DNA of 57,774 nucleotides from an uncultured delta proteobacterium (GCA_963775425.1 CAVZJB010000009.1:336616-394389); one strand, 5' to 3'. Positions 6,747-50,347 are shown, numbered from the stretch's first letter. Notes: generated from the sequence alone by a model not told the origin. Numbers and translations: made by a program.

Positions 6747-7442
6747 TCAGGCGAGGGCGAGGCGCAGCTTGGCGACGGCGGCGTTGTGGATCTGACACAC
6801 GCGCGGCTCGCTCACGCCGAGGACCGCGGCGATCTCTTTGAGCGTCAATTCTTCGACGTAGCGCAGCGAGAGCACCGCCTGGTAGCGGTCGGTGAGCGTC
6901 GCCACGGCGTCGCGCAGCGCGGCCGCGCGCTCCCGGCCCACGATCAGCTCGTCGACGTGCGTGTCGCCGCTCGCCACCGGCCCCGCGTCCTCGAGCGGCC
7001 TGTGCGCTTCGTTCGCCTTTTCGAGCCGGTCGACCTCGCGCATGTCGACGTCGAGCGCGCCCGCGATCTCGTCGCGCGACGGCGCCCGGCCGAGCGCCGT
7101 GGTGAGCTCGTGGCGCTTCTTCTCCAGCGTGGCCACGCGGCCGCGGAGCCGGCGCGGCAGGCGGTCCATGCGGCGCAGCTCGTCGAGCATCGCCCCGCGG
7201 ACCCGGTGGCTGACGAACCCCTCGAGCTTCACGCCGCGCGCGGGGTCGTACCGCTTCATCGCGTCGAGCAGGCCGAGCGCGCCTGCCGACCACAGGTCGT
7301 CCGCGTCCACGCCGGTGCGCGCGGCCAGCGCCAGCGCCGCCCGGCGCACGACGTGGCCGAAGCGCTTCAGGATCTCGTTGTCGTCGGCCGGCGCCGCCGC
7401 ATACCGCTGCAGCGCGTATTGCGTGTTGCTCGTCGTGGTCAT
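6747..7442 (-). CDS. fliA: flagellar sigma factor FliA (sigma-28)
   Basis: 231 aa from internal ATG (MTTTSNTQYALQRY...). Region 2 (DLWSAGALGLLDAMKRYDP, RRMDRLPRR) and region 4.2 (YVEELTLKEIAAVLGVSEPRVCQIHNAAVAKLR) are recognisable. ATG overlaps flhG stop (ATGA). Last gene of the flhA-flhF-flhG-fliA unit. Confidence 0.9.
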   Translation of the reverse strand: MTTTSNTQYALQRYAAAPADDNEILKRFGHVVRRAALALAARTGVDADDLWSAGALGLLDAMKRYDPARGVKLEGFVSHRVRGAMLDELRRMDRLPRRLRGRVATLEKKRHELTTALGRAPSRDEIAGALDVDMREVDRLEKANEAHRPLEDAGPVASGDTHVDELIVGRERAAALRDAVATLTDRYQAVLSLRYVEELTLKEIAAVLGVSEPRVCQIHNAAVAKLRLALA

Positions 7443-12461: not shown

Positions 12462-12494
12462 CTTGCGCTTCCCTGCGCAGGCATCCCTTACTCA

Positions 12495-19393: not shown

Positions 19394-20475
19394 AGTCTGC
19401 AGGAATTCAATCCATCGCCGTCGGCTTTCCCAAGACGGTTCGCAACAACGACTGGTTCCGCGACAATTACCCCGACGCGCTCGCGGCCATGGAGAGCAAG
19501 GCGCTCGCGCAGGTGTTCAGCACCAAAGGGGCGACGGAGAGCACGCGCGCCTTCGACCAGGCGATGACGCAGTACCTGCGCGACCCGTTCCGGGGAACGA
19601 AGCGTCGGCGCGTGTTGGCGCCGGGCGAGAGCCAGATCGAGCTCGAGCGGGACACCGCGCTCGAAGCGCTTTCGAAGGCGAACCTCGCCGTGGAAGACAT
19701 CGACGTCATCTTGACGTCGGCGTTTCCGACGGAGAACGTGGGCGTCGGTGACGGCGTGTTCCTCGCGAAGGCGCTCGGCACGCGGCTGCCCGCGTTCAAC
19801 GTCGAGACCGCCTGCAGCGGCGGCCTCGCGAGCCTCCAACTCGCATCTGCGATGGTGCAGTCGGGACAGGCAAGGAACGTGCTCGTCGTCGTCTCCTGCA
19901 TCTACTCGCGCTGCTGCGATTGGAACGACACGCTGACGTGGTTCCTCGGCGACGGCGTCGGCGCGTACGTCGTCGGCGAAGTGCCCAGAGGTGAAGGCTT
20001 CCACGCGTTCCATGCCCTGAATACCGCGGAGTCCTGCGGCAGCTTCTCCTATGAGCTGGAGATCGAGCAAGGCGCCCCGCGCGCCGTGATCCGGTCGAGC
20101 GCGGCGGCGGGCAAGGCGCTCCGCGACGTCACGCCACGCGCGATCCGTGATGCCTGCGGCGGCGTCCTCAAGAAAGCGAGGCTCACGCTGGACGACATCG
20201 ACTTGTTCGTCCCGAACACGCCGTTGGCGTGGTTCGCCGAGCTCTTTGCGGACACGCTCGGGATCCCCGTGGAAAAGACCGTGTCGACCTACGAGGACTA
20301 CGCCAACATCGGCCCCGCGCTCAACCCGGCGAACCTGCACCGCGCGCTCGTGGATGGGAGAGCGGGCCCCGGGACGCGAGTCCTGTTCTTCTCGATCGGC
20401 TCCGTGTCGACCGCGGCGGCGGCGGTGGCCACGCTCGGGGACGTGGGCGTCGGCTCGCTCGAAGAGACAGGTTGA
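19390..20475 (+). CDS. KAS III (FabH)-like condensing enzyme, thiolase superfamily
   Basis: 361 aa. Active-site Cys context AFNVETACSGGLASLQLA. C-terminal YEDYANIGPALNPANLHRAL resembles the FabH Asn motif. The expected VPHQAN His motif appears as VPNTPLA. GTG start overlaps the upstream stop (GTGA). Confidence 0.75.
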   Translation: MKSAGIQSIAVGFPKTVRNNDWFRDNYPDALAAMESKALAQVFSTKGATESTRAFDQAMTQYLRDPFRGTKRRRVLAPGESQIELERDTALEALSKANLAVEDIDVILTSAFPTENVGVGDGVFLAKALGTRLPAFNVETACSGGLASLQLASAMVQSGQARNVLVVVSCIYSRCCDWNDTLTWFLGDGVGAYVVGEVPRGEGFHAFHALNTAESCGSFSYELEIEQGAPRAVIRSSAAAGKALRDVTPRAIRDACGGVLKKARLTLDDIDLFVPNTPLAWFAELFADTLGIPVEKTVSTYEDYANIGPALNPANLHRALVDGRAGPGTRVLFFSIGSVSTAAAAVATLGDVGVGSLEETG

Positions 20476-20518
20476 CCGGAGTGCACGTCGATGGATTCGA
20501 TCGGTTAGCATCCCCACC

Positions 20519-21118
20519 GTGGTTCTCAGCGCACCTCCCGAGGGCTTCACGATTCCGGATTTCAGCGCGCCGCTCGACGTCGACGCGTACCTGAGTCGGC
20601 TCCCCGCGGGCGCGACGTTCAAGGGCACGGTGGCGGCGGCGACGTTGAACACCCTGCGGACCGCGAACGTCGCGCCACCGACGACCAAGGTCTACACGGA
20701 ATTCCGCGACTACCCGATGCACGAGCTCCTCGAGCTGAACATCGCGAGCGCGCGGGCGCTCTGTCCCGACCTTCCTGTGCGGGAGGGGCTGAGGAGAATC
20801 GGCCGCGCGCTCTTTCCGACGTTCGCGCAGACGCTCATCGGGAGGGTCATGTACGGGGTCTTTGGCGGCAACGTCTCGGCGATCTTTCGGCTCGCCAACA
20901 AGAGCTTCGAGATCACACAGAACACCGGCAAGGTGCGCACCGAGGTCCTCGGCAAAGACACCGTGCTGCTCGCCTTCACCAACACCTACACGTTCCTGAG
21001 TAGTTATCACTACGGCGTGCTCGAGGGCGCGCTCGAGCGTTGCGGGGTGCGCGGCGAGGTGTGGTTCCGCGAGGCGTCGCCTTCCGAGGGAGAGTTCTTC
21101 GTCGCGTGGTCGCCGTAG
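20519..21118 (+). CDS. hypothetical protein resembling the Myxococcus-type paralogous family TIGR02265 / DUF2378
   Basis: 199 aa from GTG (VVLSAPPEGFTIPDF). RALCPDLPVREGLRRIGRALFPTFAQTLIGRV ... YHYGVLEGALERCGVRGEVWFRE matches my recollection of that family. Start is uncertain: no ATG in frame between the fabH-like stop and this GTG. High GC3. Confidence 0.45.
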   Translation: MVLSAPPEGFTIPDFSAPLDVDAYLSRLPAGATFKGTVAAATLNTLRTANVAPPTTKVYTEFRDYPMHELLELNIASARALCPDLPVREGLRRIGRALFPTFAQTLIGRVMYGVFGGNVSAIFRLANKSFEITQNTGKVRTEVLGKDTVLLAFTNTYTFLSSYHYGVLEGALERCGVRGEVWFREASPSEGEFFVAWSP

Positions 21119-21202
21119 AAGCGGAATTCTCGTTGTCGGTCAGAATGCAGAGTCGCGCGCGGTCGATGGACGACGCCGTCGGCGTCCCTTAGGCTGTGCG
21201 CC

Positions 21203-21583
21203 GTGAAGGCCTCGTTGGAACACCTCGCCGCGGCGGTCGCCTCCATGGCCGAGGCGAGCGAAGCGGCTTCGCAGGCGTTATTGACCGCCGGCTACGACAC
21301 GGAGGACATGCCGGTCATCCGGGAGCAGGTCGGGCGCGCGGCCGGCACCGTCGAGGGTCTGTGCACCATCCTCGGCGGCGAGGGAGAGCGGGACGAGGTC
21401 TTCGTTCTCCTTCACCAGATCAACAATCAGCTCACCGGAATCCTCAGCCTCACGTTGCTCGTCAAGGACGACCTCGGGAGCGACCACCCGTCGCGCGCGG
21501 CGCTCGACACGCTCGACGTCGTCTCGCGCGACGCCGCGGCGGTGGTGAGAGACGTCGCCGCGCGGCTCAAGCGCGGGGCTTAG
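21203..21583 (+). CDS. small stand-alone histidine-kinase DHp (HisKA-like) domain protein, possible phosphotransfer or kinase-modulating protein
   Basis: 126 aa. LLHQINNQLTGILSLTLLV resembles an H-box (phospho-acceptor His plus NxLT). No ATPase domain follows. High GC3, while the antisense 150-aa ORF is low-complexity. Confidence 0.55.
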   Translation: MKASLEHLAAAVASMAEASEAASQALLTAGYDTEDMPVIREQVGRAAGTVEGLCTILGGEGERDEVFVLLHQINNQLTGILSLTLLVKDDLGSDHPSRAALDTLDVVSRDAAAVVRDVAARLKRGA

Positions 21584-21766
21584 GGTCCTCGAATGAACAC
21601 GTCGGTCGAAGATCGCGGTCGAGGCGCGCCGATGGCGAGGCGCGAGGAGGGAGCGTGGCCGTCGCCACGTGACCGACGGCAACGAAGCCAGCGGCGATGG
21701 ATCGGCCGCGAGGGCGATCGAGTTGTTCATTCGGGGGCCCTTGGGCGCCCGTCCTGACGAGCGCGC

Positions 21767-23668
21767 TCAGAGCTCGATGCGCTCGCCGTGGCGGGTCATC
21801 ACCTCTGTCACCGCCCGCGTGAGGTCCGCGGGCACGAACGGCTTCTCCAGGCGCACGTTCTGCGTGTTCTCAAAGAGCTCACTCGCGCGTGGCGTGAACG
21901 CGTTGCCCGTCATGAACACGATGCGGGACTTCATGTCGGGCGCGGCGTCGTCGAGGCCCTCGTAGAGATCGACGCCGGAGAAGCCCGGCATCATCAGGTC
22001 GCACAGCACCACGTCGTAGCGCTCGCCGTTGGCGAGCCTGTCGAACGCGGCGCGGCCGCGCCCCTCGACCACGACCTCGATGCCGTGCTTGGTGAGGATG
22101 CGCCGAATGGCGGTGCAGATGAGCGTCTCGTCGTCCACGACGAGGACGCGGGCGCGCGACATGGCCGCGGCGGCGCTTCTGCGCTTGTCCGTGACCGCCG
22201 CGTGGACCGGCTCCGCCGGCGGCAGGGAGATGACGACCGCCGTGCCTTCGTCCGGAACGCTGTCGGCAGTGATGGTGCCGCCGAAGCCGGTGACGATGGT
22301 GTGCGCGATGGACAGGCCGAGGCCGAGGCCTTCGCCCACCGGCTTTGTGGTGAAGAAGGGCTCGAAGATGCGGCCGATGTGTTCCGCGGGGATGCCCTTG
22401 CCGGTGTCGCTGATGCGAATCACGACGCGATCGCCCTCGAGCCCGGTGGACACGGAGATAGTGTGCGCAGGCTTGTCGTCGAGCGCCTGCACCGCGTTGG
22501 TGAGCACGTTGACGAGCACTTGCACGAGCTTGCCCTCGTCGGCGAGGACCGGCGGCGCCGAGCCGAGGCGGAGCTCGAGCTCCGCGCGGTGCTTGATCTC
22601 GGTGTTGACCAGGCGCACAGCGAGGGACGCCGCGCGGTTGACGTCGACGAGGAGCTTTCCGTCCGCCTCCGCGCGCGTGAACACCTTCATGTCCTTGACG
22701 ATGGTGGCCGCGCGGGCCGCGCCGTCGCGGGCCTCGCCGAGCGCGTCGAGCGACTCCGACAGCGCGTCGAGGGAGGCGCGCGACGCGTTGGTGGGGGCGA
22801 GCTCCTCGGTGAGGCGCGTGAGCTCGCCGAGCGCGAATTCGATGTTGCTCGTGACGAACGCCAGGGGGTTGTTCAGCTCGTGCGCGATGCCTGCCGCCAG
22901 TGTCCCGATGGACACCATGCGGTCCGCGAGCGCGAGGCGTTGGGCCAGGCGCCGCTGCTCGGTGATGTCGCGAAACACGACGACGACGCCGTGCAGGGCG
23001 CCGGACTCCTCGATGATGGGAGAAGCGTTGTGCTCGATGATGATGCTCGGCCCGGATCGCGGCACCAGTCGCAAGACCGGCTGGCTCGTCTCTTCAGCGC
23101 TCTTTTCGTTCGCGTCGGCGGTGACGGCGAAGACGTCGTTCAGCGGACGGCCGAGCGCGTCCGCTTCCGACCAACCCGTGAGCTGCTCGGCGGTGGGGTT
23201 CATGAACGTGATGTGCGCGACGTCGTCGGCGGTGATGACGGCGTCGGCGATGGAGCGCAGCGTGGTGGTGTACCAACGCTCGCGCGCCGCAGATTGCCGC
23301 TCGATGTTGCGGCGGAACAGCGCCAGCTCGAAGGCGGACGCGAGCTCCCGCCCCGACACCGGCTTGAGGGCGTAGCCCGCGGGGTGCGCGCGCGCCGTTG
23401 TGCTCAGGACGTCGTGATCGAGCGAGGAGAGGAGCAGCACCACGGGGGCGTCGACGGCCGCTTGCAGGGCCTCGACGTCGTCGAGACACGAGTCGAGCCG
23501 GCCCTCCGGCACGTCGACGAGGATGACGTGTGCGGTGACCGCCGGCCCGTCCTCCAGCGCGTCCGCCGCCGTGCTCGACGACGTCACGTCGTACCCGAGA
23601 CCGGACAGGAGGGGAATCAACGTTGCGCGCAACTGCTCGTCATCGACGAGCAGCAGGACCGAGTGCAT
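21767..23668 (-). CDS. hybrid sensor histidine kinase (REC - PAS - HisKA - HATPase_c - REC)
   Basis: Internal ATG MHSVLLLVDDEQ (N-terminal receiver, Asp in HVILVDVP). PAS-like segment. H-box GTLAAGIAHELNNPLAFV. ATPase boxes (VLTNAVQA, DTGKGIP, GLGLGLSI). C-terminal receiver (RVLVVDDETLI...VVLCDLMMPGFSG). The upstream 227 codons of the ORF-track reading are wrong-frame text. Confidence 0.9.
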   Translation of the reverse strand: MHSVLLLVDDEQLRATLIPLLSGLGYDVTSSSTAADALEDGPAVTAHVILVDVPEGRLDSCLDDVEALQAAVDAPVVLLLSSLDHDVLSTTARAHPAGYALKPVSGRELASAFELALFRRNIERQSAARERWYTTTLRSIADAVITADDVAHITFMNPTAEQLTGWSEADALGRPLNDVFAVTADANEKSAEETSQPVLRLVPRSGPSIIIEHNASPIIEESGALHGVVVVFRDITEQRRLAQRLALADRMVSIGTLAAGIAHELNNPLAFVTSNIEFALGELTRLTEELAPTNASRASLDALSESLDALGEARDGAARAATIVKDMKVFTRAEADGKLLVDVNRAASLAVRLVNTEIKHRAELELRLGSAPPVLADEGKLVQVLVNVLTNAVQALDDKPAHTISVSTGLEGDRVVIRISDTGKGIPAEHIGRIFEPFFTTKPVGEGLGLGLSIAHTIVTGFGGTITADSVPDEGTAVVISLPPAEPVHAAVTDKRRSAAAAMSRARVLVVDDETLICTAIRRILTKHGIEVVVEGRGRAAFDRLANGERYDVVLCDLMMPGFSGVDLYEGLDDAAPDMKSRIVFMTGNAFTPRASELFENTQNVRLEKPFVPADLTRAVTEVMTRHGERIEL

Positions 23669-23732
23669 GACCGTGAATCTAGCAGAGGTCAGGAGGCCCG
23701 GGCCGTCTTGTGCGTCACCGGAGATCGGGGCG

Positions 23733-23762
23733 GCACAGGCCGGGCTTAAGTGCACAGGCCGG
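23733..23762. repeat. direct repeat GCACAGGCCGG x2 (19-bp register) in the divergent kinase / HDOD intergenic region
   Basis: CGGCACAGGCCGGGCTTAAGTGCACAGGCCGGCGCG read from the sequence. Lies between the divergent starts at 23668 (-) and 23871 (+). Coordinates approximate. Confidence 0.6.
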
Positions 23763-23870
23763 CGCGCCGATGACCGATCCGACGTGTCAGCACCAGCCGC
23801 TCCGAGGAACGCCTTGGTCGCCGACCTCTCGGCGGTGGAGCCACGCGCGCTCGCGAGCGTGGAGCGGTTG

Positions 23871-24653
23871 ATGGACGCCCTCGCCCGGGGGCGGCTCCCC
23901 CTGCCGGTGCTGCCCGCGGTGGCCATGGAGCTGTTCGAGCTCGCCTCCGACGCCGACATCCCCTTCGAGCGGCTCGCCCGGCGGGCGGTGACGGACCCGA
24001 ACGTCGCCGCCCGCATCATGGCGCTGGCGTCGTCGTGTGCCTTTGGTGTCAACCGGCCCACCGGCGTGAAGGACGCCCTCGCGCGCATCGGCCTCGACGG
24101 TGTGCGCCACGTGGCGTTCGACATCGCGTACTCCGCCCGCGTTTTGCGCCGCGGGCCGCACCTGCCTCTCGTGGAGCGCGCAGTCCGACATGCGCGCACC
24201 GCGAGCGCGCTGTGTCGCCTGCTCGCGCGCGACGTCGGCATCGCGCCCGGCCCCGCCGCCCTCGCAGGTCTGCTGCACGCGCTCGGGGCCATCGTGATCA
24301 TCGATGACTTGAGCAAGGCGCGGCCGCCCGTGACGGGCCGCGCGGCCATCCTCGCCGTCCGCCGCTTGCACGGCTGGACAGCGGCGCGCGTGGCGGCGCG
24401 CCACCAGGTCGATCCCGATGTGGTCGACGCCCTGGACGAGCATCACCTTCCGACGTCGCGCACGCCGCTGTCTGCGCTCTTGCAGCTCGCCGACCTGATC
24501 TCGCCGAGCGAGCCGGGGGGGCGGGCAATTCCTCTCGGAGACGCGCTCGCGAGGACCGGCCTCCCGCTCGCCGAGCGGGCGGTGCGCGAGCGGCTCTCGC
24601 CGCTGCTGGCGACGTTCGAGGAGTCCCGCCGGGTCCTGCTGCCCGCGTCGTAG
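23871..24653 (+). CDS. HDOD-domain protein (first of two)
   Basis: LPLPVLPAVAMELFELASDADIPFERLARRAVTDPNVAARIMALASSCAFGVNRPTGVKDALARIGLDGVRHVAFDIAYSARV fits the HDOD pattern. Start set to ATG 23871 (GGAG 6 nt upstream). The ORF-track start at 23523 would overlap the divergent kinase gene, and GTG 23784 is an alternative. Confidence 0.6.
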   Translation: MDALARGRLPLPVLPAVAMELFELASDADIPFERLARRAVTDPNVAARIMALASSCAFGVNRPTGVKDALARIGLDGVRHVAFDIAYSARVLRRGPHLPLVERAVRHARTASALCRLLARDVGIAPGPAALAGLLHALGAIVIIDDLSKARPPVTGRAAILAVRRLHGWTAARVAARHQVDPDVVDALDEHHLPTSRTPLSALLQLADLISPSEPGGRAIPLGDALARTGLPLAERAVRERLSPLLATFEESRRVLLPAS

Positions 24654-24703
24654 ATCGCGCGCGCACCCTTAACTCCGGGGCCGTTTGCGACGACTTCACA
24701 GAC

Positions 24704-25801
24704 ATGACCGAGCACGCGCATCACCCGGCGGCGCAGACGCTGTCGGCGATCCTCACCGGCGCCGTCGCGGCAGGCGCGTCCGACGTGCACCTGCGCACGG
24801 GATCGCCGCCGTTCTTTCGCGACAACGGCCAGATCGTGCGCATGGGCGAGACACCCGTGAGCGCCGTCGACGTCGTCGAGATGATCCGGATCTTCTCAGG
24901 CCGCGAGATCGGCGCCGTGGGACCCGCGTTCGAGTTCTCGTTCGACGCCGGCCCCGCCTTCCGGGTTCGAGCTCATGCGTTCCGCTCCAACGAGGGCTGG
25001 GGTCTGGCGCTGCGGCTGGTGCCGGCGGCCGTCCCCGGGTTCGCCGACCTGCGCCTGCCGCCGGTGGTGAAGACCTTCGCCCAGGCCCGTCCCGGCCTCG
25101 TCCTGGTCACGGGGCCGATGGGCAGCGGCAAGTCCACGACGTCCGCGGCGATGCTCCAATACATGGCGGGCGAGGAGAGCATCCACATCGTCACGCTGGA
25201 AGATCCCATCGAGTACCGCCTGCGCACGCAGCGGTCCTGCGTGAGCCAACGCGAGCTCGGCCGCGACGCCGTCGACCTGCCCACCGCGTTGCGCGACGCC
25301 CTGCGCGAAGATCCCGACGTCCTGTTCATCGGTGAGCTGCGCGACTCCAAGGACCTCGACGTCGCGCTGCACGCCGCCGACATGGGCGTCGGCGTCTTCG
25401 CCACGTTTCACACGCACGGCGCTGCACAAACGCTGGCGCGGCTCGTCGCGATGCACCCGGTCGAGCAGCAGATCGCAGCGCGCGAGCGCATCGCCGAGTC
25501 CCTGCGCGGCGTGCTCTCGCAGCGCCTCGTGGCCCGCCGCGGCTCCGCCTCGCGCGTCCTCGCCACCGAGGTCCTCGTCAACACGTACTCGGTCAAGGAG
25601 TGCGTGCGCGACCCCGCGCGTCAAAAGACGCTCCCGAGCGTGCTCGAGCGCGGCGGCGATCAAGGGATGCACACCTTCGACCAGAGCCTGCTCGCGCTGT
25701 GCAGCGCGGGGATCGTCGACGTCGAGAACGCCGCCAGCCTGGCGTCGTCCCCGGGAAACCTGCGGCGCGCCCTCAACCTCTCGGCGATGAACGCCGCATG
25801 A
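24704..25801 (+). CDS. PilT-family hexameric ATPase (type IV pilus retraction ATPase family, GspE/PilT/PilU clade)
   Basis: 365 aa. N-terminal GASDVHLRTGSPPFFRDNGQI. Walker A LVLVTGPMGSGKSTT. Asp box IVTLEDPIEY. Walker B DVLFIGELRD. His box ATFHTHGAAQT. C-terminal GMHTFDQSLLALCSAGIV. Collinear with PilT across its full length. Confidence 0.88.
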   Translation: MTEHAHHPAAQTLSAILTGAVAAGASDVHLRTGSPPFFRDNGQIVRMGETPVSAVDVVEMIRIFSGREIGAVGPAFEFSFDAGPAFRVRAHAFRSNEGWGLALRLVPAAVPGFADLRLPPVVKTFAQARPGLVLVTGPMGSGKSTTSAAMLQYMAGEESIHIVTLEDPIEYRLRTQRSCVSQRELGRDAVDLPTALRDALREDPDVLFIGELRDSKDLDVALHAADMGVGVFATFHTHGAAQTLARLVAMHPVEQQIAARERIAESLRGVLSQRLVARRGSASRVLATEVLVNTYSVKECVRDPARQKTLPSVLERGGDQGMHTFDQSLLALCSAGIVDVENAASLASSPGNLRRALNLSAMNAA

Positions 25802-25823
25802 ACGCGGAGCGAGGTCTGTTCCC

Positions 25824-26030
25824 ATGATCCCCCTGACGCGCCTCGATGGAACCACGTTCTTCTTGAACCCGGCGCTGATGGTGACCGTGGAAGAGGCGCC
25901 GGACACGGTGATCAACCTGTCCACCGGCACGAGCATCATGGTGCTCGAGGACGCGGCGGAGATCGTCGACCTCATCATCGTCTTCCACCGCCGCATTCAG
26001 CTCGGGCCCATGCTCGAAGGAGCGGAGTGA
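25824..26030 (+). CDS. flbD: flagellar protein FlbD
   Basis: 68 aa: MIPLTRLDGTTFFLNPALMVTVEEAPDTVINLSTGTSIMVLEDAAEIVDLIIVFHRRI matches the FlbD family (MIKLTRLNG...PDTVI). Lies immediately upstream of motA. Confidence 0.85.
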   Translation: MIPLTRLDGTTFFLNPALMVTVEEAPDTVINLSTGTSIMVLEDAAEIVDLIIVFHRRIQLGPMLEGAE

Positions 26031-26033
26031 GAC

Positions 26034-26789
26034 ATGGACTTCGCGACGCTCGGTGGCTTGATCTTCTCGCTGGGGTGCATCCTCGGTGGGCAGGCGCTCG
26101 AGGGAGGCCACGCGGGCTCCCTCATGCAGCTCACCGCCTTCATCATCGTTCTCGGCGGCACCATCGGCGCCGTCTCCGTCGGGTCGCCCCCCGCCCTGAT
26201 CAAAGACGGCGCTGCGATGATCAAGCTCGCCCTGTTCCCGCCCAAGGACGACACCGCCAAGCTCACGGGGGAGCTGCTGGAGCTCGCGACGCTGGCGCGC
26301 AAGGAAGGCGTGCTCGCGCTCGAGCCCAAGCTCGCCGAGCTCGAGGACCCGTTCTTCAAGAGGGCGCTGCAGATGATCGTCGACGGCGTCGACCGCGCGG
26401 TGACGCGCGACATCCTCGAGGCTGACGCCATTCACGCCGCGAAGAGCGAGCTCGCCGCGGCAAAGCTCTGGGAGCAGGCGGGAGGGTACTCGCCCACCGT
26501 CGGCATCCTCGGCGCCGTCCTCGGCCTCATCCACGTGATGGAGAACCTGTCCGATCCATCCAAGCTCGGCGGCGGTATCGCCACGGCGTTCGTCGCCACG
26601 GTCTACGGCGTCGGTACCGCCAACCTCTTCTTCTTGCCGGTTGCCAACAAGCTCAAGCTGCGTATCCAGAACGCCAAAGACCGCAAGATCCTCGTCATCG
26701 AGGCCGCGCTCGGCATCCAGGAGGGCCTGCCCACGAGCGTCCTCGCGGAGAAGCTCACCTCCTACGGGGGCAAGCATGAGCAGACTTGA
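26034..26789 (+). CDS. motA: flagellar stator protein MotA (MotA/TolQ/ExbB channel family)
   Basis: 251 aa with 4 TM segments and the conserved plug/TM3-TM4 region (ILGAVLGLIHVMENL...IATAFVATVYGVGTANLFFLPVANKL). Confidence 0.9.
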   Translation: MDFATLGGLIFSLGCILGGQALEGGHAGSLMQLTAFIIVLGGTIGAVSVGSPPALIKDGAAMIKLALFPPKDDTAKLTGELLELATLARKEGVLALEPKLAELEDPFFKRALQMIVDGVDRAVTRDILEADAIHAAKSELAAAKLWEQAGGYSPTVGILGAVLGLIHVMENLSDPSKLGGGIATAFVATVYGVGTANLFFLPVANKLKLRIQNAKDRKILVIEAALGIQEGLPTSVLAEKLTSYGGKHEQT

Positions 26790-27558
26790 CCACGAGGAGG
26801 AGGAGCACGAGAACCACGAGCGATGGCTCGTGTCCTACGCGGACTTCATCACGCTCCTCTTCGCGTTTTTCGTCGTGATGTACGCCATCAGCTCCGTGGA
26901 TCAGAAGCGCGCCATCCGCGTGGAGAACTCGGTGCGCTGGGCGCTGCATATCGCCGGGCACGGCGGGGGCGGCGACCGCATGCTCAATCCGGAGGCGCTC
27001 ATGCCCGGTGCCCCGTCGGTGGAGATGATCCGCAAGACCGACCGCGAGAGGTCGAGCGACGAAAAGCTGGTGAAGACCGTGCGCGCGCACATCGTGCGCA
27101 AGGTGTCCAACACGGGCGCGGGTGAGGCGCGGCCGTCGGTGTTGGTGATGCTCGAGGGCCGAACGCTCGTGGTGCGCGTCTCCACTTTGAACCTCTTTGA
27201 CGAGGGGAAGGCGGTGTTGCGGCCGTCGGCGCTCGGCACCCTCGACGCCGTGCTCGCGGAGGTGGGCGCGCTGAACAAGCCGGTCCGCGTCGAGGGACAC
27301 ACCGACAGCTCGGGCGCGTCCGCGGTGTTCGACAAGAACTGGGCGCTGTCCGCCGAGCGCGCCGCGTCCGTGGTCGCGTACGCGGAGGCCGCCGGCTACA
27401 TCGACACCAAGCTGCTGTCGCTCGCCGGCTACGGCGCGCGGCGGCCGGTGGCGCCCAACGACACGCCCGAGGGGCGGGAACGAAACCGCCGCATCGATAT
27501 CGTCGTGGACCTGGCGGCGCCCGACGTGTCGGACGTTGTAAGTGCGCCGGCGGACTGA
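26776..27558 (+). CDS. motB: flagellar stator protein MotB (OmpA-like C-terminal peptidoglycan-binding domain)
   Basis: Internal ATG MSRLDHEEEEHENHERWLVSYADFITLLFAFFVVMYAIS (conserved MotB TM with the Asp in YADFITLL). C-terminal OmpA-like VEGHTDSSGASAVFDKNWALSAERAASVV. Overlaps the motA 3' end by 14 nt. Confidence 0.9.
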   Translation: MSRLDHEEEEHENHERWLVSYADFITLLFAFFVVMYAISSVDQKRAIRVENSVRWALHIAGHGGGGDRMLNPEALMPGAPSVEMIRKTDRERSSDEKLVKTVRAHIVRKVSNTGAGEARPSVLVMLEGRTLVVRVSTLNLFDEGKAVLRPSALGTLDAVLAEVGALNKPVRVEGHTDSSGASAVFDKNWALSAERAASVVAYAEAAGYIDTKLLSLAGYGARRPVAPNDTPEGRERNRRIDIVVDLAAPDVSDVVSAPAD

Positions 27559-27614
27559 CGGATCTCCGATTCCCGAGCCTTCAGAAGGCCGGACCGTCGC
27601 CGATGTGACGGTGC

Positions 27615-28739
27615 ATGCATATCGTCTACGCACCCGGTTCGGCGCTCGCTCCCGTGGTCGAGCAATGCCGCTTCGTCGCTCCGAGCGACGCCACAGTGCT
27701 CCTGCTCGGCGAGACCGGCACCGGCAAAGAGGTGTTCGCGCGCCACATCCATGACAGCAGCAAGCGCGCGGCCGGCGCATTCGTCGCCGTCAACTGCGGC
27801 GCGATCCCCGAAGCGTTGCTCGAGGCCGAGCTCTTCGGTCACGTGCGCGGCGCCTTCACCGGGGCCGACCGCAGCCGCCGGGGACGCGTGGCTGCGGCGG
27901 AGGGCGGCACCCTCTTCCTCGACGAGGTCGCCGAGCTGCCGCTGTCGCTGCAGGTGAAGCTCCTGCGCCTGCTGCAGGAGCGCACCTACGAGCCCGTGGG
28001 CGAGGCGTCGTCGGTGCGGGCGGACTTTCGTTTGATGGCTGCCACCAACAAGGACCTCGAAGCGGAGGTGGAGGCGGGCCGCTTTCGCCGCGACCTCTAT
28101 TACCGGCTCTTCGTTTGCCCCGTGGAGCTCCCGGCGCTCCGCGAGCGCCGCGACGACGTCGACGCGCTGTTCGCGCACTTCTGGGCGGAGCGCGGCGAGC
28201 AGCGCCCCGTCGAGCCGGCGGTGCTGGCGCACCTGCGCGCGTATGCGTGGCCCGGGAACGTGCGCGAGCTCGAAAACGTCATCGAGCGCCTCTCGGTGTG
28301 CTCGCCGGGGCCCGCGATCACGGAGGACGACCTCCCCGCCGGCTACCGCGGCCGCGCGCCGGCCGCGCCGCGCGCGCAGCTCATGCTCACGCGCCCCGTG
28401 CCGCGTCGTCCGGATCACGCTTCGCCGCTCGACGGCGACGACGTCGCCGCCGCCGACGGCTCCCTGCTCCCGCGGATGCCGGCCCCCGTGCCGGGCCGCC
28501 TCCCCCCGATGAGCCTCGGCGCGCTCCTCCGCGACGTCGAGTGCGCCTACATCGACGCCGCGCTCGCGCAGACGCAGGGCAACCGCCAGGCGGCGGCGAC
28601 GCTGCTCGGCCTGCAGCGCACCACGCTCGTCGAGAAGCTGCGCCGCCGCCAGGCGAGCGACGGGCGAGCGTCTGTGAGCTCGGCGGAGGGCGACGCGGTC
28701 CTGCCGGCGTCTCCTGCGTCCGTGGTGCGGAGCGCCTGA
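27615..28739 (+). CDS. sigma-54 enhancer-binding protein lacking an N-terminal regulatory domain (AAA+ sigma-54 activator + Fis-type HTH)
   Basis: Starts directly in the sigma-54 interaction domain ([23 protein letters not shown]). GAFTGA present. [24 protein letters not shown]-terminal [27 protein letters not shown]. Embedded between motB and flgB. Confidence 0.88.
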
Positions 28740-29975
28740 GTGCTGCCGCTCGCCGTCCTCCTGACCCTCGCGCCGTCCGCGCCGCCCGCCGCTCGTACGG
28801 CCCTCGGCGAGGTCGTGGGCATCGAGCGCTTCGCGGTGCCGGCGGTGGCGCGCGTGAGCGTCGACGCGCTGGCCGGCACGGTGACGCTGCGCGGGGTCAA
28901 GCGGGCGCCGACGACGTCGTCGATCTGTCCCCGTGTCGACGACGCGCGTGCGCGGCACGGGGTCGTCGAGCTGCGGTGCCGGACGCATCACCTCGAGGCG
29001 CGCATCGTCCACGCCCCGAAGGGTCGGCGCGCCGCGCGCACGCCCGGCGCTCTGCTCGAGATCGTGGAGCTGAGCGCGGCGCCGCAAAAGGACGGCGAGG
29101 GCTCGCTGCCGTTGTTTGCGTACGACCAGGAGGAGATCGGCGCCGGCGGCGCGTGCCCCGGCGACACCCCCGCGAGCCGCGGCGAGTGCGCCCTCGACGC
29201 GGGGAGCGTGTCGACGGCCGTGAAGGAATTCACGCTCGCGCTCGAGGGCGCGAACGCGCCGTTCGCGGCGCTCCGCCTCGGCGACATCGCCGCGTCGCTC
29301 GACGACATCGACCGCGCGACGCGCTTTTGGGACCGCGTCGGGCCGCGAGGATCGCTCGCGCGCCTGGCCGCCGCGCGCCTGTGTGAGTACGTGGGCGGTT
29401 GCCTGGAGAGGACGGAGGCTGGCGTGACCTTCGCCGCCCTCGACGACGCTGGGCTGCCCGCGCCCCTCGCCGACGAGCTGGTGCTGCGCCACGCCCGCGT
29501 CCTCGCCTACGACGGTCGCCTCGGCGACGCCCTCTCGCTGCTCGTCGACCGCACGCACGACGGCCGCGCGCCTTGCGCTCGCGCGACGCCGCTGTGTCGC
29601 CGCCTCGCACGCGCCGGTCTCGAGAGCGACAGCGACGCCGACGGCGCCGCCGCGCTCGCCCTCGCGCTCGGCCTCACGCGCAAAGGCGAGCCCGACATCG
29701 AGCTCGTGCGCCTCGCGGCGGAGCGCGCCGCGGCCTTCGGCGCGCCCGGGTTCGCCGCGAACCTCCTGGCGTCGTCGACGGCGGGGGCGCCGGCGGCGGC
29801 GGTGGAGGAGCCGCTGTTGCGGAGCGCCGAGCTGTACCTCGCCTCCGGCGACGCCGTGCGCGCCGCCACCGTCATGCGGTTCTTGCGCGCGCACTTGAAA
29901 CACCCGCGCGACCGCCGGCGCATTCGCGACATCACCGCCCGCATTCGCGCCGCGGGGGAGCAGGAGGGAACGTGA
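28740..29975 (+). CDS. hypothetical secreted protein (signal peptide, multiple Cys, Ala/Leu-rich C-terminal half) inside the flagellar operon
   Basis: 411 aa. GTG start overlaps the activator stop (TGAGTG). N-terminus MLPLAVLLTLAPSAPPAA. High GC3. No family recognised. Stop overlaps the flgB GTG. Confidence 0.6.
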   Translation: MLPLAVLLTLAPSAPPAARTALGEVVGIERFAVPAVARVSVDALAGTVTLRGVKRAPTTSSICPRVDDARARHGVVELRCRTHHLEARIVHAPKGRRAARTPGALLEIVELSAAPQKDGEGSLPLFAYDQEEIGAGGACPGDTPASRGECALDAGSVSTAVKEFTLALEGANAPFAALRLGDIAASLDDIDRATRFWDRVGPRGSLARLAAARLCEYVGGCLERTEAGVTFAALDDAGLPAPLADELVLRHARVLAYDGRLGDALSLLVDRTHDGRAPCARATPLCRRLARAGLESDSDADGAAALALALGLTRKGEPDIELVRLAAERAAAFGAPGFAANLLASSTAGAPAAAVEEPLLRSAELYLASGDAVRAATVMRFLRAHLKHPRDRRRIRDITARIRAAGEQEGT

Positions 29976-30325
29976 AGATCTTCGACGCATCGCTCGTGTC
30001 GCTCGAGCACGCGCTCGACGTCCGCGGCCGCCGGCACACCGCGCTCGCCGGTGACCTCGCCAACGCCGACACGCCCGGGTTCATGCCCGTGGATGTCCCG
30101 TTCGACGAGGCCATGGCGGCGGCGGGGCGCGAAGGCGCGGCCCCCGTGGAGGCGCGCGAGAGCGAAGAGATCGCGGGCGCGCCCGGCATCGACGGCAACC
30201 GCGTCGACGTCGACCGGACGCTCGCCGCCCTCGCCGAAAACGGCATGCAGTACAGCGCCGCCGCGCGCGCCGCGAGCAAGAAGCTCGCGATCCTCCGCTA
30301 CGTCGCCGGCGACGGCGTCGGCTGA
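29972..30325 (+). CDS. flgB: flagellar basal-body rod protein FlgB
   Basis: 117 aa from GTG (AGGAGGG 5 nt upstream). LAGDLANADTPGFMP and C-terminal MQYSAAARAASKKLAILRYV. The ORF-track reading 29399- is an Arg-rich extension in the wrong start context. Confidence 0.88.
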   Translation: MKIFDASLVSLEHALDVRGRRHTALAGDLANADTPGFMPVDVPFDEAMAAAGREGAAPVEARESEEIAGAPGIDGNRVDVDRTLAALAENGMQYSAAARAASKKLAILRYVAGDGVG

Positions 30326-45253: not shown

Positions 45254-46183
45254 CTAGAGCGAGGCGCGCAGCGCGCGCAAGGCCGCGCCGACGTCGATGC
45301 TGATGCGGGCGCGGGGGAGGCGGCCGAGGCCGAGGGCGCGCAGGCCGGCTTCGGCGCTGTAGTAGAGGACGTCGAAGGCGGTGGGGGTCTCGGCGACGTC
45401 GATGGCGAAGCCCTGCGCGACGGCGAGGTTCTCGGCCGTGACGAGCGCGGCCAGCAACGGATCGGTGCGGTCGTCGATGATGGCCGGGTGGTGGCTGGCG
45501 ACGAGCTCCGCCACGCGTGTGGGGACGCCGTACGACCTCGCCACCGCGCGGCCGGCGTGTTCGTGGACGGCGCCGACGAGCTGCGCGAGCGCGGAGGCGT
45601 GCGGCCGCCCGAACACGTCCGGCGCGGCCGAGATGGCGCCGAGCGCGGCGCCGATGCCGGCGTCGTGAAACAGGCCCAGGAGGAAGGCGTCGAAGGGATC
45701 GGCGCCGGCGACGCGTGCGATCGCCGCGGCGGCGTGGGCGACGGCGGCGGCGTGATGCCGTGCACGCAGCGCGATGTCGGTGAAGCCGGGTGCACGATAC
45801 ACGTGCAGCTCCACCGCGGCCTCGACGACGGCGGCGGGCGCGCGGGGCCCGGCGTCCTCGAGCAGCTCCGCGACGCCGGCGCCGTCGCAGGCGTACACGG
45901 GCGAGCGCAGGAGCCACTCGACCGCACCGGCGAGCATCGGATCGCGCTCGAGGTCGCGCGCGAGCGCGGCTGTCGTCGTCCCGCCCGCGAGCGCGCGCAG
46001 CGCGGCGGGGGGCGGGAGCGCACAGCAGGGCAGCGATTCGGCGCAGGCCAGGAGCAGGCGCTGCTCCTCGACGTGATCGAGCGCGGCCGCACCCTCCGGC
46101 CGGCGATCGAGCGTGAAGGACAGCGCCGGGGGGAGGGCCGGCCACGACACGTCGAGCTGCGGGGTGGCCTCGTCGAGCGGCAT
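45254..46183 (-). CDS. HDOD-domain protein (second copy)
   Basis: Internal ATG MPLDEATPQLDVSWPALPPAL. LARDLERDPMLAGAVEWLLRSPVYA...FLLGLFHDAGIGAAL...VASHH follows the HDOD pattern. ATG overlaps the upstream gene stop (ATGA). Assignment from motif memory only. Confidence 0.5.
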   Translation of the reverse strand: MPLDEATPQLDVSWPALPPALSFTLDRRPEGAAALDHVEEQRLLLACAESLPCCALPPPAALRALAGGTTTAALARDLERDPMLAGAVEWLLRSPVYACDGAGVAELLEDAGPRAPAAVVEAAVELHVYRAPGFTDIALRARHHAAAVAHAAAAIARVAGADPFDAFLLGLFHDAGIGAALGAISAAPDVFGRPHASALAQLVGAVHEHAGRAVARSYGVPTRVAELVASHHPAIIDDRTDPLLAALVTAENLAVAQGFAIDVAETPTAFDVLYYSAEAGLRALGLGRLPRARISIDVGAALRALRASL

Positions 46184-46965
46184 CAGCGCACCAGCTCCCG
46201 CAGCGCGCCCACCTGGCAGTCGAGCTCGTCGCTCACGAGCACACCGAGGGTGAAGAGCTGCACGATGGCGTTCATGTGGGCGTCGCCCGGACCCGCGGCG
46301 CGCAGCCGCGCCGCGAGCTCGCGGTTGATGACCGCGAGATCCGCGTAGAAGGCGCGCAGCGCGCCGAGGTCCAGATCCGGCTCGGCACCGTCCTCGCGCG
46401 CGAAGTGCGCGCGCAGGAGGTGCACCGCGACCGCGCGAAAGAGCGTCTCCTGCAGCGTCGAAAACGGGAGGTGCGTTCGCCCCATGGGCTTGAAGCGGGC
46501 GAGCACGGGGCACCCGCTCGTACTCATCAACAGGCCCACCAGGCTGCGCAGCAGCTCCTGGAGGTCGGTGCTCTTTTGCACCATGCGCTCCTCGGTGACG
46601 ACGCGGACGTCGACGCGCTCGTAGGAGGCCATGCCGGAGAACGCCTCCACCAGGGGTGCGAGATCCACCGCCGCAGGACAATGTGTGTGCCGCGTCGCTT
46701 CCAGCGGACACCCGGGGCAGGGGTGGTTCGACAGCTCCGTCCACACCGGCAGGCCGCTCCCCGGCGGCGCCGCGCTCCCGCGCTCGACGTCGACGACGAA
46801 GCGCCAACGTCGCCCGTCATCCACCCGCACCTGGTATTCGACCTGGTCTCCCACGACCCCTTCATCGGCTCCCGGCGACGCGGACTGAACCTGGCGATCA
46901 GGCGCGGCCGCTCCCGCGGTGGCAGATCCGCCCGGCGGGCCCCTCGGCGCATCGAGCTGATGCAC
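46183..46965 (-). CDS. hypothetical protein with a CPGCP...HTHC Cys/His motif
   Basis: About 260 aa from GTG (VHQLDAP) chosen to avoid the Ser/Arg-rich upstream text. High GC3 from there to the stop. WTELSNHPCPGCPLEATRHTHCP suggests a metal-binding knuckle. No family recognised. Divergent from the 1110-aa signalling gene. Confidence 0.45.
   Translation of the reverse strand: MHQLDAPRGPPGGSATAGAAAPDRQVQSASPGADEGVVGDQVEYQVRVDDGRRWRFVVDVERGSAAPPGSGLPVWTELSNHPCPGCPLEATRHTHCPAAVDLAPLVEAFSGMASYERVDVRVVTEERMVQKSTDLQELLRSLVGLLMSTSGCPVLARFKPMGRTHLPFSTLQETLFRAVAVHLLRAHFAREDGAEPDLDLGALRAFYADLAVINRELAARLRAAGPGDAHMNAIVQLFTLGVLVSDELDCQVGALRELVR

Positions 46966-47014: not shown

Positions 47015-50347
<3,333 letters not shown>

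What the first reader, a model, noticed from the sequence alone, without database searches (positions are those of the whole stretch)
23871..27558. HDOD protein and a full-length PilT-family ATPase sit at the head of the flbD-motA-motB flagellar motor unit
The PilT-like gene (24704-25801) has Walker A, Asp box, Walker B, His box and the PilT C-terminal motif. It ends 22 bp before flbD. The HDOD gene ends 50 bp before the PilT-like gene, with no terminator-like structure visible in either gap. Downstream everything continues on the same strand with overlapping stops and starts through motB, a sigma-54 activator, flgB...flhB. PilT-type retraction ATPases belong to type IV pilus systems, not flagellar operons. 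Co-transcription with stator genes would suggest either coordinated control of pilus retraction and flagellar torque, or a recruited ATPase acting on the flagellar motor. HDOD proteins are frequently c-di-GMP/motility modulators, which fits a regulatory module.
Basis: partly seen in the sequence, partly recalled or inferred. Interest (0 to 1): 0.65.

Follow-up and report, generated by a model that had tools for sequence, protein, structure and literature searches.

The report
PilT-like ATPase clade inside flagellar clusters
A motor ATPase of the kind that normally retracts type IV pili sits with an HDOD signalling gene at the head of the flagellar stator genes, and its relatives in other uncultured Myxococcota almost always lie inside flagellar gene clusters, an association I could not find described in the searchable literature.

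Summary
The layout is as described. HDOD (23871-24653), a full-length PilT-family ATPase (24704-25801), flbD, motA and motB follow each other on the + strand with 50, 22, 3 and -14 bp junctions and no terminator-like hairpins. Two motif claims need correcting. The first His of the His box is Val, and the AIRNLIRE motif is replaced by SVKECVRD.

The main result comes from synteny. The ATPase belongs to a superclade with 100% bootstrap support, made of clades A, B and B', all from uncultured Myxococcota MAGs or metagenomes. In 12 of 13 independent loci its members lie inside flagellar gene clusters. The immediate neighbours differ (flbD-motAB, fliS/fliD, fliA, flgKL/csrA-fliW, sigma-54 activator/flgBC), and stops and starts often overlap by 1-4 bp. 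None of 80 ordinary PilT loci has flagellar neighbours, whereas 45 of those 80 carry a second pilus-type ATPase. HDOD and c-di-GMP genes recur next to the clade. A sigma-28-like promoter lies upstream of HDOD.

The link is therefore to the flagellar regulon, mostly its late genes, and not specifically to the stator. The mechanism is inferred. Pilus retraction timed by flagellar expression is my leading reading (about 0.4). A direct action on the flagellum is the main rival (about 0.3). I rate this a new variant of a known kind, of moderately high interest.

The parts
23747..23773 (+). Sigma-28 (FliA)-like promoter motif TAAG-N15-GCCGATGA in the 202-bp divergent intergenic region, about 98 bp upstream of the HDOD ATG
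   Evidence: Exact match to TAA-N16-GCCGATRA. Four matches at up to 1 mismatch in the window, against 0.16 expected from shuffles. A fliA gene is present at 6774-7418(-). The consensus is recalled from general knowledge. The motif is not conserved upstream of the orthologues in L005, L001 or L002.
23871..24653 (+). Single-domain HDOD protein (260 aa), first gene of the unit
   Evidence: Pfam PF08668 HDOD, E 7e-21. GGAG lies 6 nt before the ATG. The HD doublet is degenerate (LLHALG).
24704..25801 (+). Full-length PilT-family hexameric ATPase (365 aa), a member of flagellar-cluster-associated clade A
   Evidence: TIGR01420 at 332 bits against a cutoff of 319. PDB PilT chains score about 231 bits and PilU 179 bits. 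AF2 pLDDT 94.3. Foldseek TM 0.85-0.89 to PilT2, PilT4 and PaPilT. Motifs. Clade A bootstrap 100%.
25824..26030 (+). flbD (68 aa)
   Evidence: Pfam PF06289 FlbD, E 1.3e-21. It starts 22 bp after the ATPase stop.
26034..26789 (+). motA stator subunit
   Evidence: PF01618 and PF20560. NF006583 at 284 bits, above its cutoff.
26776..27558 (+). motB stator subunit, overlapping the end of motA by 14 bp
   Evidence: PF13677 MotB_plug and PF00691 OmpA. Start codon located.
27615..28739 (+). Sigma-54 activator without a receiver domain, the next gene downstream after a 56-bp gap
   Evidence: PF00158, PF25601 and PF02954. The same gene follows the PilT-like gene directly in L009 and lies about 0.5 kb downstream of it in L013.
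21767..23668 (-). Divergently transcribed hybrid histidine kinase (REC-PAS-HisKA-HATPase-REC). It sets the upstream boundary of the unit.
   Evidence: Pfam domains. The start and N-terminal receiver domain were read from the sequence.
6774..7418 (-). fliA (sigma-28) gene of the same flagellar cluster
   Evidence: 61% identical to the FliA of L005 by tblastn.
45254..46190 (-). Second HD/HDOD-type gene in the same cluster, downstream of a DUF6901 gene
   Evidence: Pfam HDOD at 27.9 bits and HD at 25.9 bits. 34% identical to the HDOD protein that neighbours the PilT-like gene in L007.

Best explanation
**What it is (shown)**
- The gene at 24704-25801 encodes a catalytically competent PilT-family hexameric ATPase.
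- It belongs to a distinct lineage, found so far only in uncultured Myxococcota, that has become a resident gene of the flagellar regulon, mostly next to late genes.
- In this window it lies between an HDOD gene and flbD-motAB, downstream of a sigma-28-like promoter motif.

**How it most likely works (inferred)**
- The ATPase is made together with the stator and late flagellar proteins.
- It still acts on the type IV pilus machine, retracting or disabling pili when the cell commits to swimming.
- The HDOD protein, and in relatives GGDEF, EAL, HD-GYP, PilZ and receiver proteins, acts as a signalling input that gates it.
- In short, it would be a switch between motility modes written into the flagellar regulon. 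Enterobacteria do something comparable when they place PdeH and YcgR in the late flagellar class.

**Status of each step**
- Shown: family, fold, conserved catalytic residues, clade structure, conserved flagellar linkage, HDOD recurrence.
- Inferred: co-transcription in this window, sigma-28 dependence, the target of the ATPase, and the role of HDOD.
- The confidence figure below refers to the pilus-retraction mechanism. The descriptive finding I put at about 0.9.
For: **Family and activity**
- PilT family by sequence and fold.
- Walker A Lys, both Asp-box Glu, the Walker B Glu, the second His and several Arg are invariant across 49 clade-A sequences. This argues for an active enzyme under purifying selection.

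**Clade structure**
- Clade A, clade B and A+B+B' each have 100% NJ bootstrap support, apart from the other PilT-family sequences sampled.

**Flagellar linkage**
- 12 of 13 independent loci are flagellar, with different immediate neighbours.
- 1-4 bp overlaps with the preceding flagellar-operon gene in L012, L015, L016 and L098 indicate co-translation with flagellar genes.
- None of 80 control PilT loci carries flagellar genes (864 kb in total).

**Late-gene context**
- Most neighbours are late genes: fliC, fliD, fliS, flgK, flgL, fliW, motAB and fliA.
- A sigma-28-like promoter lies upstream of HDOD, and fliA is in the window.

**Signalling neighbours**
- An HDOD-trained HMM hits 7 of 14 clade loci (the window plus the 13), against at most 4 of 80 controls. 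Pfam annotation confirms HDOD in 6 of them.
- GGDEF, EAL, HD-GYP, PilZ and REC genes are also neighbours.

**Prior for a pilus target (general knowledge)**
- Every characterised PilT or PilU works on a type IV pilus platform.
- Bacteria often keep several differently regulated PilT paralogues.
- Myxococcota generally have type IVa pili.
Against: - The AIRNLIRE motif is replaced by a clade-specific N-N-Y-x-x-K-E-C-I-R-D signature. From memory, AIRNLIRE is needed for PilT retraction in vivo.
- The first His of the His box is lost in this subclade (Val, Ile or Met) and is Arg in clade B.
- No pilus gene lies within 10 kb in any of the 14 loci, and no second T2SSE-family ATPase is adjacent, against 45 of 80 controls.
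- The gene stays inside flagellar clusters through many rearrangements. That is more typical of a protein that works on the flagellum itself than of a regulator of another organelle.
- I could not check whether these genomes have type IV pili or a canonical PilT.
- The sigma-28-like motif is not conserved upstream of the orthologues in L005, L001 or L002.
Confidence: 0.4

Rival explanations
1. The ATPase has been recruited to the flagellum itself. As a hexameric motor it would act on a flagellar component. Candidates are the FlbD/MotAB stator units (assembly, exchange or disengagement), the C-ring, or filament and cap assembly. It would then be an ATP-driven brake, clutch or remodeller, with HDOD and c-di-GMP proteins as its regulators.
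For: - Flagellar linkage holds in 12 of 13 loci despite extensive rearrangement, and no locus has pil genes.
- 1-4 bp overlaps with the preceding gene of the flagellar operon: flgL in L016, csrA-fliW in L098, HDOD-GGDEF in L015, and an uncharacterised 180-aa gene after fliA in L012.
- Direct adjacency to flbD-motAB in four lineages.
- The PilT signature motif AIRNLIRE is lost and replaced by a clade-specific conserved motif, as expected if the partner changed.
- The superclade is deep and has 100% support.
Against: - No PilT-family ATPase is known to act on a bacterial flagellum.
- The immediate neighbours vary, so no single flagellar partner is indicated.
- The fold is an unmodified PilT with no added domain.
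- The flagellar clusters look complete without it.
Confidence: 0.3
2. The protein is a signalling or positioning ATPase rather than a force generator on either organelle. Together with HDOD, a ParA-like ATPase and c-di-GMP enzymes it would form a nucleotide-dependent regulatory complex. That complex would control flagellar number, placement or gene expression, for example through FlhF/FlhG, FliA or the sigma-54 activators.
For: - Recurrent neighbours are regulators: HDOD, REC, GGDEF, EAL, HD-GYP, PilZ, a 340-400 aa ParA-like ATPase (L007, L015, L097, L098), fliA, and sigma-54 activators.
- L097 shows the ATPase with only this signalling set and no flagellar gene within 11 kb.
- A remote precedent exists. 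Deleting the traffic ATPase VirB11 in Xanthomonas albilineans abolishes flagella and pili and changes expression of 28 flagellar-assembly and 10 chemotaxis genes (PMC11369208).
Against: - Full conservation of the catalytic machinery and the hexameric PilT fold suggests mechanical work.
- No DNA-binding or known nucleotide-second-messenger-binding domain is present.
Confidence: 0.15
3. The adjacency has no functional meaning. An ordinary pilT paralogue happens to lie next to flagellar genes and is carried along with them.
For: - In this window alone, a 22-bp gap does not prove co-transcription.
- The sigma-28-like motif is a consensus match only.
Against: - Linkage is kept in 12 of 13 independent loci at 43-67% identity, with different neighbours and orientations, against none of 80 controls. 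By my own arithmetic the Fisher exact p is about 3e-14.
- Overlapping stop and start codons with flagellar genes in several loci.
Confidence: 0.05

Closest known systems
PilT retraction ATPases of type IVa pili (P. aeruginosa PilT 3JVV, Thermus PilT2 5FL3, Geobacter PilT4 6OJX)
   Same: - Same family and fold over the full length: TM 0.85-0.89 and about 231 bits.
- Walker A, Asp box, Walker B and the second His are conserved.
- It passes the TIGR01420 cutoff.
   Different: - Only 34-42% identical to PaPilT across the clade.
- It forms a separate superclade with 100% bootstrap support.
- The AIRNLIRE motif is replaced and the first His-box His is lost.
- It is never next to pil genes or a second ATPase, and almost always sits inside flagellar clusters.
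PilU and accessory PilT paralogues (for example PilU 9N32; M. xanthus and Geobacter PilT paralogues, recalled from memory)
   Same: - Extra PilT-family copies that diverge from the AIRNLIRE consensus.
- They are thought to modulate, rather than solely drive, retraction.
   Different: - PilU scores lower than PilT against this protein (179 against 231 bits).
- PilU genes typically sit next to pilT, as with the second ATPase seen in 45 of 80 control loci. This clade never does.
Xanthomonas RpfG (HD-GYP), GGDEF, PilZ and PilT/PilU network (recalled from memory; not checked here)
   Same: HD-family and c-di-GMP signalling proteins that control a PilT-family motor. L009 and L097 place HD-GYP, GGDEF, PilZ and HDOD genes around the PilT-like gene.
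   Different: - In Xanthomonas the target is the pilus, and the genes are not in flagellar clusters.
- Here the partner is HDOD, a degenerate HD domain with no known enzymatic activity.
Late-class flagellar regulon brakes and clutches: E. coli YcgR/PdeH, B. subtilis EpsE and MotI (general knowledge)
   Same: Non-structural proteins linked to c-di-GMP or lifestyle switching that act on the motor or stator, or that are encoded in the flagellar regulon.
   Different: None of them is homologous to PilT, and none is an ATPase motor.
Archaeal FlaI (archaellum motor ATPase)
   Same: An ATPase of the same secretion-ATPase superfamily that powers a rotary swimming organelle.
   Different: - The NCBIfam FlaI model scores 45 bits against a cutoff of 550.
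- The organelle here is a bacterial flagellum with its own FliI and MotAB.

Membership tests
PilT/PilU family type IVa pilus ATPase (TIGR01420) | Whole-protein score above the curated family cutoff | tested here: met
   332.1 bits against a cutoff of 319.1, a narrow pass. PF00437 T2SSE at 137.7 bits.
PilT/PilU family type IVa pilus ATPase (TIGR01420) | Two-domain PilT fold (N-terminal PAS-like domain plus RecA-like ATPase domain) | tested here: met
   AF2 pLDDT 94.3. Foldseek TM 0.85-0.89 to PilT structures over about 350 residues.
PilT/PilU family type IVa pilus ATPase (TIGR01420) | Walker A, Asp box, Walker B and a complete His box (two His) | tested here: inconclusive
   Walker A, Asp box and Walker B are intact. 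The His box keeps the second His (invariant H236), but the first is Val here, Ile/Val/Met in the closest relatives and Arg in clade B.
PilT proper (retraction ATPase) | C-terminal AIRNLIRE motif | tested here: not met
   SVKECVRD in the window. The clade consensus is NNYxxKECIRD.
PilT proper (retraction ATPase) | Genomic association with type IV pilus genes or a pilU/pilB neighbour | tested here: not met
   No pilus gene or second T2SSE-family ATPase within 10 kb in 14 loci, against a second ATPase in 45 of 80 control loci. Genome-wide presence of pili could not be tested.
PilT proper (retraction ATPase) | Pilus retraction activity | not testable with these tools
   This needs genetics or biochemistry.
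HDOD domain proteins (PF08668) | Pfam HDOD match above the gathering score, with a degenerate HD catalytic doublet | tested here: met
   75 bits against a cutoff of 22.9. The sequence reads LLHALG where an HD domain would have HD.
c-di-GMP-binding secretion ATPases (MshE or PilB with an MshEN domain) | N-terminal MshEN/T2SSE_N c-di-GMP-binding domain | tested here: not met
   Only PF00437 and generic P-loop models hit. At 365 aa there is no room for an extra N-terminal domain.
Archaellum ATPase FlaI | Score above the NF058587 cutoff | tested here: not met
   45.4 bits against a cutoff of 550.
Flagellar stator unit FlbD-MotA-MotB | FlbD, MotA (MotA_N plus MotA_ExbB) and MotB (plug plus OmpA) in tandem | tested here: met
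   The same order follows the PilT-like gene in L005, L001 and L002.
Sigma-28-dependent (late) flagellar operon | TAAA-N15-GCCGATAA-type promoter upstream, and FliA-dependent transcription | tested here: inconclusive
   The motif TAAG-N15-GCCGATGA lies at 23747-23773 and is rare by chance. fliA is present. The motif is not conserved in orthologous loci, and no transcript data are available.

The most novel reading that the evidence does not exclude
A PilT-family hexameric ATPase has been co-opted as a true component of a bacterial flagellar system. In this reading it is an ATP-driven remodeller, brake or clutch acting on the FlbD/MotAB stator, the rotor, or late filament assembly, under HDOD and c-di-GMP control. 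That would be a second energy input to the bacterial flagellar motor, and a bacterial counterpart to the use of a pilus-type ATPase in the archaellum.
Probability: 0.3. Interest if true: 0.9.

Novelty: new variant of a known kind. Interest (0 to 1): 0.65.

Why it matters
**What it would add**
- Pilus retraction ATPases and flagella are treated as belonging to separate motility machines.
- A large, well-supported PilT-like lineage that lives in flagellar gene clusters points to an undescribed coupling between the two machines, or to a new accessory motor for the flagellum.
- In databases these proteins are mostly labelled "twitching motility protein PilT" or "PilT/PilU family ATPase", and many carry no name at all. 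Pilus motility may therefore be over-predicted in Myxococcota MAGs.

**Wider relevance**
- The finding shows that many uncultured Myxococcota carry complete flagellar clusters with their own regulators.
- It gives HDOD, a widespread domain of unknown mechanism, a concrete candidate partner to test.

**Testability**
- The candidate genes are defined, and the proteins are small and soluble-looking, with a confident predicted fold.
- That makes binding, ATPase and complementation experiments feasible even without a cultured host.

Tried and rejected
**Searches that gave little**
- Looking up the window's own protein on its contig found nothing on record. The source organism is therefore known only indirectly. 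Relatives are named Myxococcota, Myxococcales, Polyangiales or Deltaproteobacteria MAGs, and a Myxococcus-type DUF2378 gene is in the window.
- The genome-contig scan with the single protein gave only two relevant loci.
- The metagenome scan with the clade-A alignment chose Walker A and Asp-box patterns and was swamped by ordinary PilT genes at 32-40% identity. I reused those 80 loci as the control set instead.
- Cluster-member look-up gave no useful taxonomy.

**Promoter scans**
- The sigma-54 promoter scan (TGGCAC-N5-TTGCW, up to 2 mismatches) found 8 matches against 14.7 expected, so there is no signal.
- The sigma-70 scan found none in 23000-30200.
- The sigma-28-like motif was not found upstream of the orthologues in L005, L001 or L002, so it cannot be called a conserved feature.

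**Literature**
- Nine searches on PilT with flagellar operon or cluster, HDOD, Myxococcota, Anaeromyxobacter, Geobacter paralogues and fliS/motA found no description of this association.
- The only loose parallel is the VirB11 study.

**Readings considered and rejected**
- The long minus-strand ORF 21767-24349 does not invalidate the HDOD gene. Its Pfam domains start at residue 362, and reading the sequence shows a further N-terminal receiver domain whose ATG is at 23668.
- FlaI, GspE, PilB, DotB or VirB11 membership is excluded, because all score far below their cutoffs.
- An inactive pseudo-ATPase is unlikely, because the catalytic residues are invariant across the clade.

Full report
**Observation**

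The window has about 72% G+C and carries a complete flagellar gene cluster.
- Minus strand: flgK, flgN, an M23/FlgJ-like gene, flgI, flgH, a flagellar rod gene (flgF/flgG type), fliA (6774-7418), flhG, flhF, flhA, a second FliA-like sigma factor, and a receiver/sigma-54 activator.
- Then about 9 kb of signalling and unrelated genes: REC, a GAF histidine kinase, a TPP enzyme, KAS III, DUF2378, and a hybrid histidine kinase.
- Plus strand: HDOD 23871-24653, PilT-like ATPase 24704-25801, flbD 25824-26030, motA 26034-26789, motB 26776-27558, a sigma-54 activator 27615-28739, a conserved unknown gene, then flgB/C, fliE, F, G, H, I, flgD, flgE, fliL, M, N, O, P, R and flhB to 44637.

Neither gap has a terminator-like site or folds better than shuffled sequence.

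The long antisense ORF over HDOD is not a rival gene. The real minus-strand gene is a REC-PAS-HisKA-HATPase-REC kinase that starts at 23668. HDOD is therefore the first gene after a 202-bp divergent intergenic region.

**The ATPase**

It is a full-length PilT-family protein.
- TIGR01420 scores 332 bits against a cutoff of 319.
- PDB PilT chains score about 231 bits and PilU 179 bits.
- The AF2 model has pLDDT 94.3 and superposes on PilT2, PilT4 and PaPilT at TM 0.85-0.89.
- Walker A, Asp box and Walker B are intact.

- The first His of the His box is Val.
- AIRNLIRE is replaced by SVKECVRD.

Across 49 clade members the Walker A Lys, the Asp-box and Walker B Glu residues, the second His and several Arg are invariant. 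I therefore infer an active enzyme with a modified nucleotide-sensing or partner surface.

**Relatives and their context**

The homologue search shows a graded group at 45-67% identity (clade A). Below it lies a second group at 43-46% identity with its own signatures, GATGNGKST, AAESGRLV..TFHS and SPTVxDCIRD (clade B). Ordinary PilT sequences come below that.
- NJ trees with 200 bootstraps give 100% support for clade A, for clade B, and for A+B+B' together, against the other PilT-family sequences sampled.
- A profile search with clade B returns at least 120 further clusters. All come from MAGs or metagenomes. The few that carry an organism name are Polyangiales, Myxococcaceae, Myxococcales, Deltaproteobacteria, Pseudomonadota or "Proteobacteria" MAGs, and those with a functional name are called PilT.
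- No cultured organism appeared.

| Locus | Clade | Context of the PilT-like gene |
|---|---|---|
| L005 | A | PilT-like, flbD, motA, motB, then flgC, fliE, F, G; divergent from sigma, flhA, flhF, flhG, fliA |
| L001 | A | fliC, fliD, fliS, x, PilT-like, flbD, motA, motB, HDOD |
| L002 | A | PilT-like, flbD, motA, motB |
| L007 | A | PilT-like, ParA-like; then HDOD, fliS, fliD, fliC on the other strand |
| L009 | A | PilZ, REC-HDOD, REC-HD-GYP, PilT-like, sigma-54 activator, flgB and onward |
| L011 | A | fliD, fliS, x, PilT-like, REC |
| L012 | A | flhA, flhF, flhG, fliA, x, PilT-like with overlaps |
| L013 | A | PilT-like, sigma-54 activators, flgC, fliE, fliF |
| L014 | A | downstream of flhA, flhF, flhG, fliA (a small minus-strand ORF lies between fliA and the gene); followed on the other strand by a receiver gene, motB, motA, fliS, fliD, fliC |
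| L015 | B | last gene of a flgK-flgL(-csrA/fliW) operon; follows an HDOD-GGDEF gene with a 4-bp overlap |
| L016 | B | last gene of a flgK-flgL operon, 1-bp overlap |
| L098 | B | last gene of a flgK-flgL-csrA/fliW operon, 4-bp overlap |
| L097 | B' | GGDEF, HDOD-HD, HK-RR, PilZ, ParA-like, HD-GYP; no flagellar gene in the 11 kb available |

So 12 of 13 independent loci are flagellar.

**Control**

The metagenome scan returned 80 loci with ordinary PilT-family genes. They are 32-40% identical to the query and have a median 50% identity to PaPilT. Of these, 39 are at least 10 kb long, and they total 864 kb.
- tblastn with 19 early and 16 late flagellar probes found no flagellar gene in any of them. 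The only hit was one weak MotB/OmpA-like match.
- 45 of the 80 carry a second T2SSE-family ATPase gene next door. None of the clade A or B loci does.
- By my own arithmetic, 12 of 13 against 0 of 80 gives a Fisher exact p of about 3e-14.
- An HMM trained on the HDOD proteins hits 7 of 14 clade loci (the window plus the 13), against at most 4 of 80 controls. The control figure is an upper bound, because the training sequences also contained REC and GGDEF parts.

**Regulation**

An exact match to a sigma-28-type promoter, TAAG-N15-GCCGATGA, lies at 23747-23773 in the intergenic region upstream of HDOD.
- At up to 1 mismatch the pattern has 4 matches in the window, against 0.16 expected.
- Another match precedes a DUF6901/HD-HDOD gene pair on the minus strand at 46888-46862.
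- fliA is present in the window.
- This fits the predominantly late-gene neighbourhoods of the clade.
- However, the motif is not conserved in L005, L001 or L002. L005 instead has a sigma-54-like element at the called start of its PilT-like gene.
- Sigma-28 dependence is therefore a hypothesis, not a finding.

**Interpretation**

Shown:
- The clade is distinct and well supported.
- It has catalytic conservation and a modified PilT signature.
- It is persistently linked to flagellar clusters, often by overlapping stop and start codons.
- HDOD and c-di-GMP genes recur next to it.

The conserved partner is the flagellar regulon, especially its late genes.

Inferred mechanisms:
- **Leading reading, 0.4.** The protein is still a pilus retraction motor, but its expression is tied to late flagellar genes and gated by HDOD and c-di-GMP signalling, so pili are withdrawn when the cell swims. 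This has the better prior, because every characterised PilT-family member acts on a pilus platform.
- **Main rival, 0.3.** The ATPase has changed partner and acts on the flagellum itself. Three observations fit this better: the loss of AIRNLIRE, the complete absence of pil neighbours, and retention inside flagellar clusters through many rearrangements.
- **Regulatory or positioning role, 0.15.** It would work with HDOD and ParA-like proteins.
- **Meaningless hitchhiking, 0.05.**

**Comparison with what is known**

By score and fold the protein is a member of the PilT/PilU family. It fails two features of PilT proper, the AIRNLIRE motif and a pilus gene context, so I do not file it as an orthologue of the retraction ATPase PilT.
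- It is not FlaI, GspE, PilB, DotB or VirB11.
- It lacks an MshEN domain.
- Nine literature searches found no description of PilT-like genes as residents of flagellar clusters.
- The nearest parallel is a report that deleting the traffic ATPase VirB11 abolishes flagella and pili in Xanthomonas albilineans (PMC11369208).

**Limits**

- No transcript data were available.
- No whole-genome view of any carrier was available, so the presence of pili is unknown.
- The outgroup sampling in the tree is limited to the best 120 hits plus two PDB sequences reconstructed.
- The control loci come from many phyla and were probed with Myxococcota flagellar proteins.
- The promoter consensus, and the statements on the essentiality of the His box and AIRNLIRE, rest on my own knowledge and not on a tool result.

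Noticed in passing
L098 9384-10004; L015 6848-7450: One product of about 200 aa carries both a CsrA domain (N-terminal, MLLLKRRVGESIVIGG...) and a FliW domain. The two antagonistic partners of flagellin translational control appear to be fused. The gene lies immediately upstream of the clade-B PilT-like gene in L098 and two genes upstream of it in L015.
   Followed up: partly
window 46183-46888 (-) and 45254-46190 (-): A DUF6901 gene followed by a second HD/HDOD-type gene on the minus strand. A sigma-28-like motif, TCAG-N15-GCCGATGA, lies at 46888-46862. This HDOD protein is closer (34%) to the HDOD protein neighbouring the PilT-like gene in L007 than the first HDOD protein is.
   Followed up: partly
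window 11748-12491 (-): A second FliA-like sigma factor (regions 2 and 4 only) lies next to flhA, in addition to fliA at 6774-7418. The same extra sigma is conserved in L005, where it is divergent from the PilT-like gene.
   Followed up: partly
window 27615-29975 (+): A sigma-54 activator without a receiver domain is followed, with no gap, by a conserved 411-aa protein with no Pfam match. Homologues of the unknown protein sit at the same position in L005. Unannotated genes occupy the same position in L009 and L013.
   Followed up: partly
L005 9990-10004: A sigma-54-like -24/-12 element, TGGCGC-ACTAA-ATGC, overlaps the called start codon of the PilT-like gene. The true start is probably further downstream, and the PilT-like/flbD/motAB unit there may be sigma-54 dependent.
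   Followed up: no
L007 11195-12226; L015 13272-14390; L097 7348-8562; L098 15407-16477: A ParA/MinD-like ATPase of 340-400 aa, distinct from the FlhG of about 280 aa, recurs near the PilT-like gene or near fliS/fliT in these flagellar clusters. No copy lies in the 57-kb window apart from flhG.
   Followed up: partly
window 17987-21700 (+): A TPP-dependent enzyme, a KAS III-like gene and a DUF2378 protein are inserted between the two halves of the flagellar cluster. DUF2378 is, from memory, a paralogous family typical of Myxococcus and relatives, which fits a Myxococcota origin.
   Followed up: no
window 47015-50347 (+): A large GAF-PAS-HisKA-HATPase protein with three receiver domains and a C-terminal GGDEF domain lies about 2.4 kb downstream of flhB, after the minus-strand HD/HDOD and DUF6901 genes, at the edge of the flagellar cluster. 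It is one more c-di-GMP link.
   Followed up: no
window 27581-27606 (+): A weaker sigma-28-like match, TCAG-N14-GCCGATGT, lies in the 56-bp gap between motB and the sigma-54 activator. It could be an internal promoter or a chance match.
   Followed up: no
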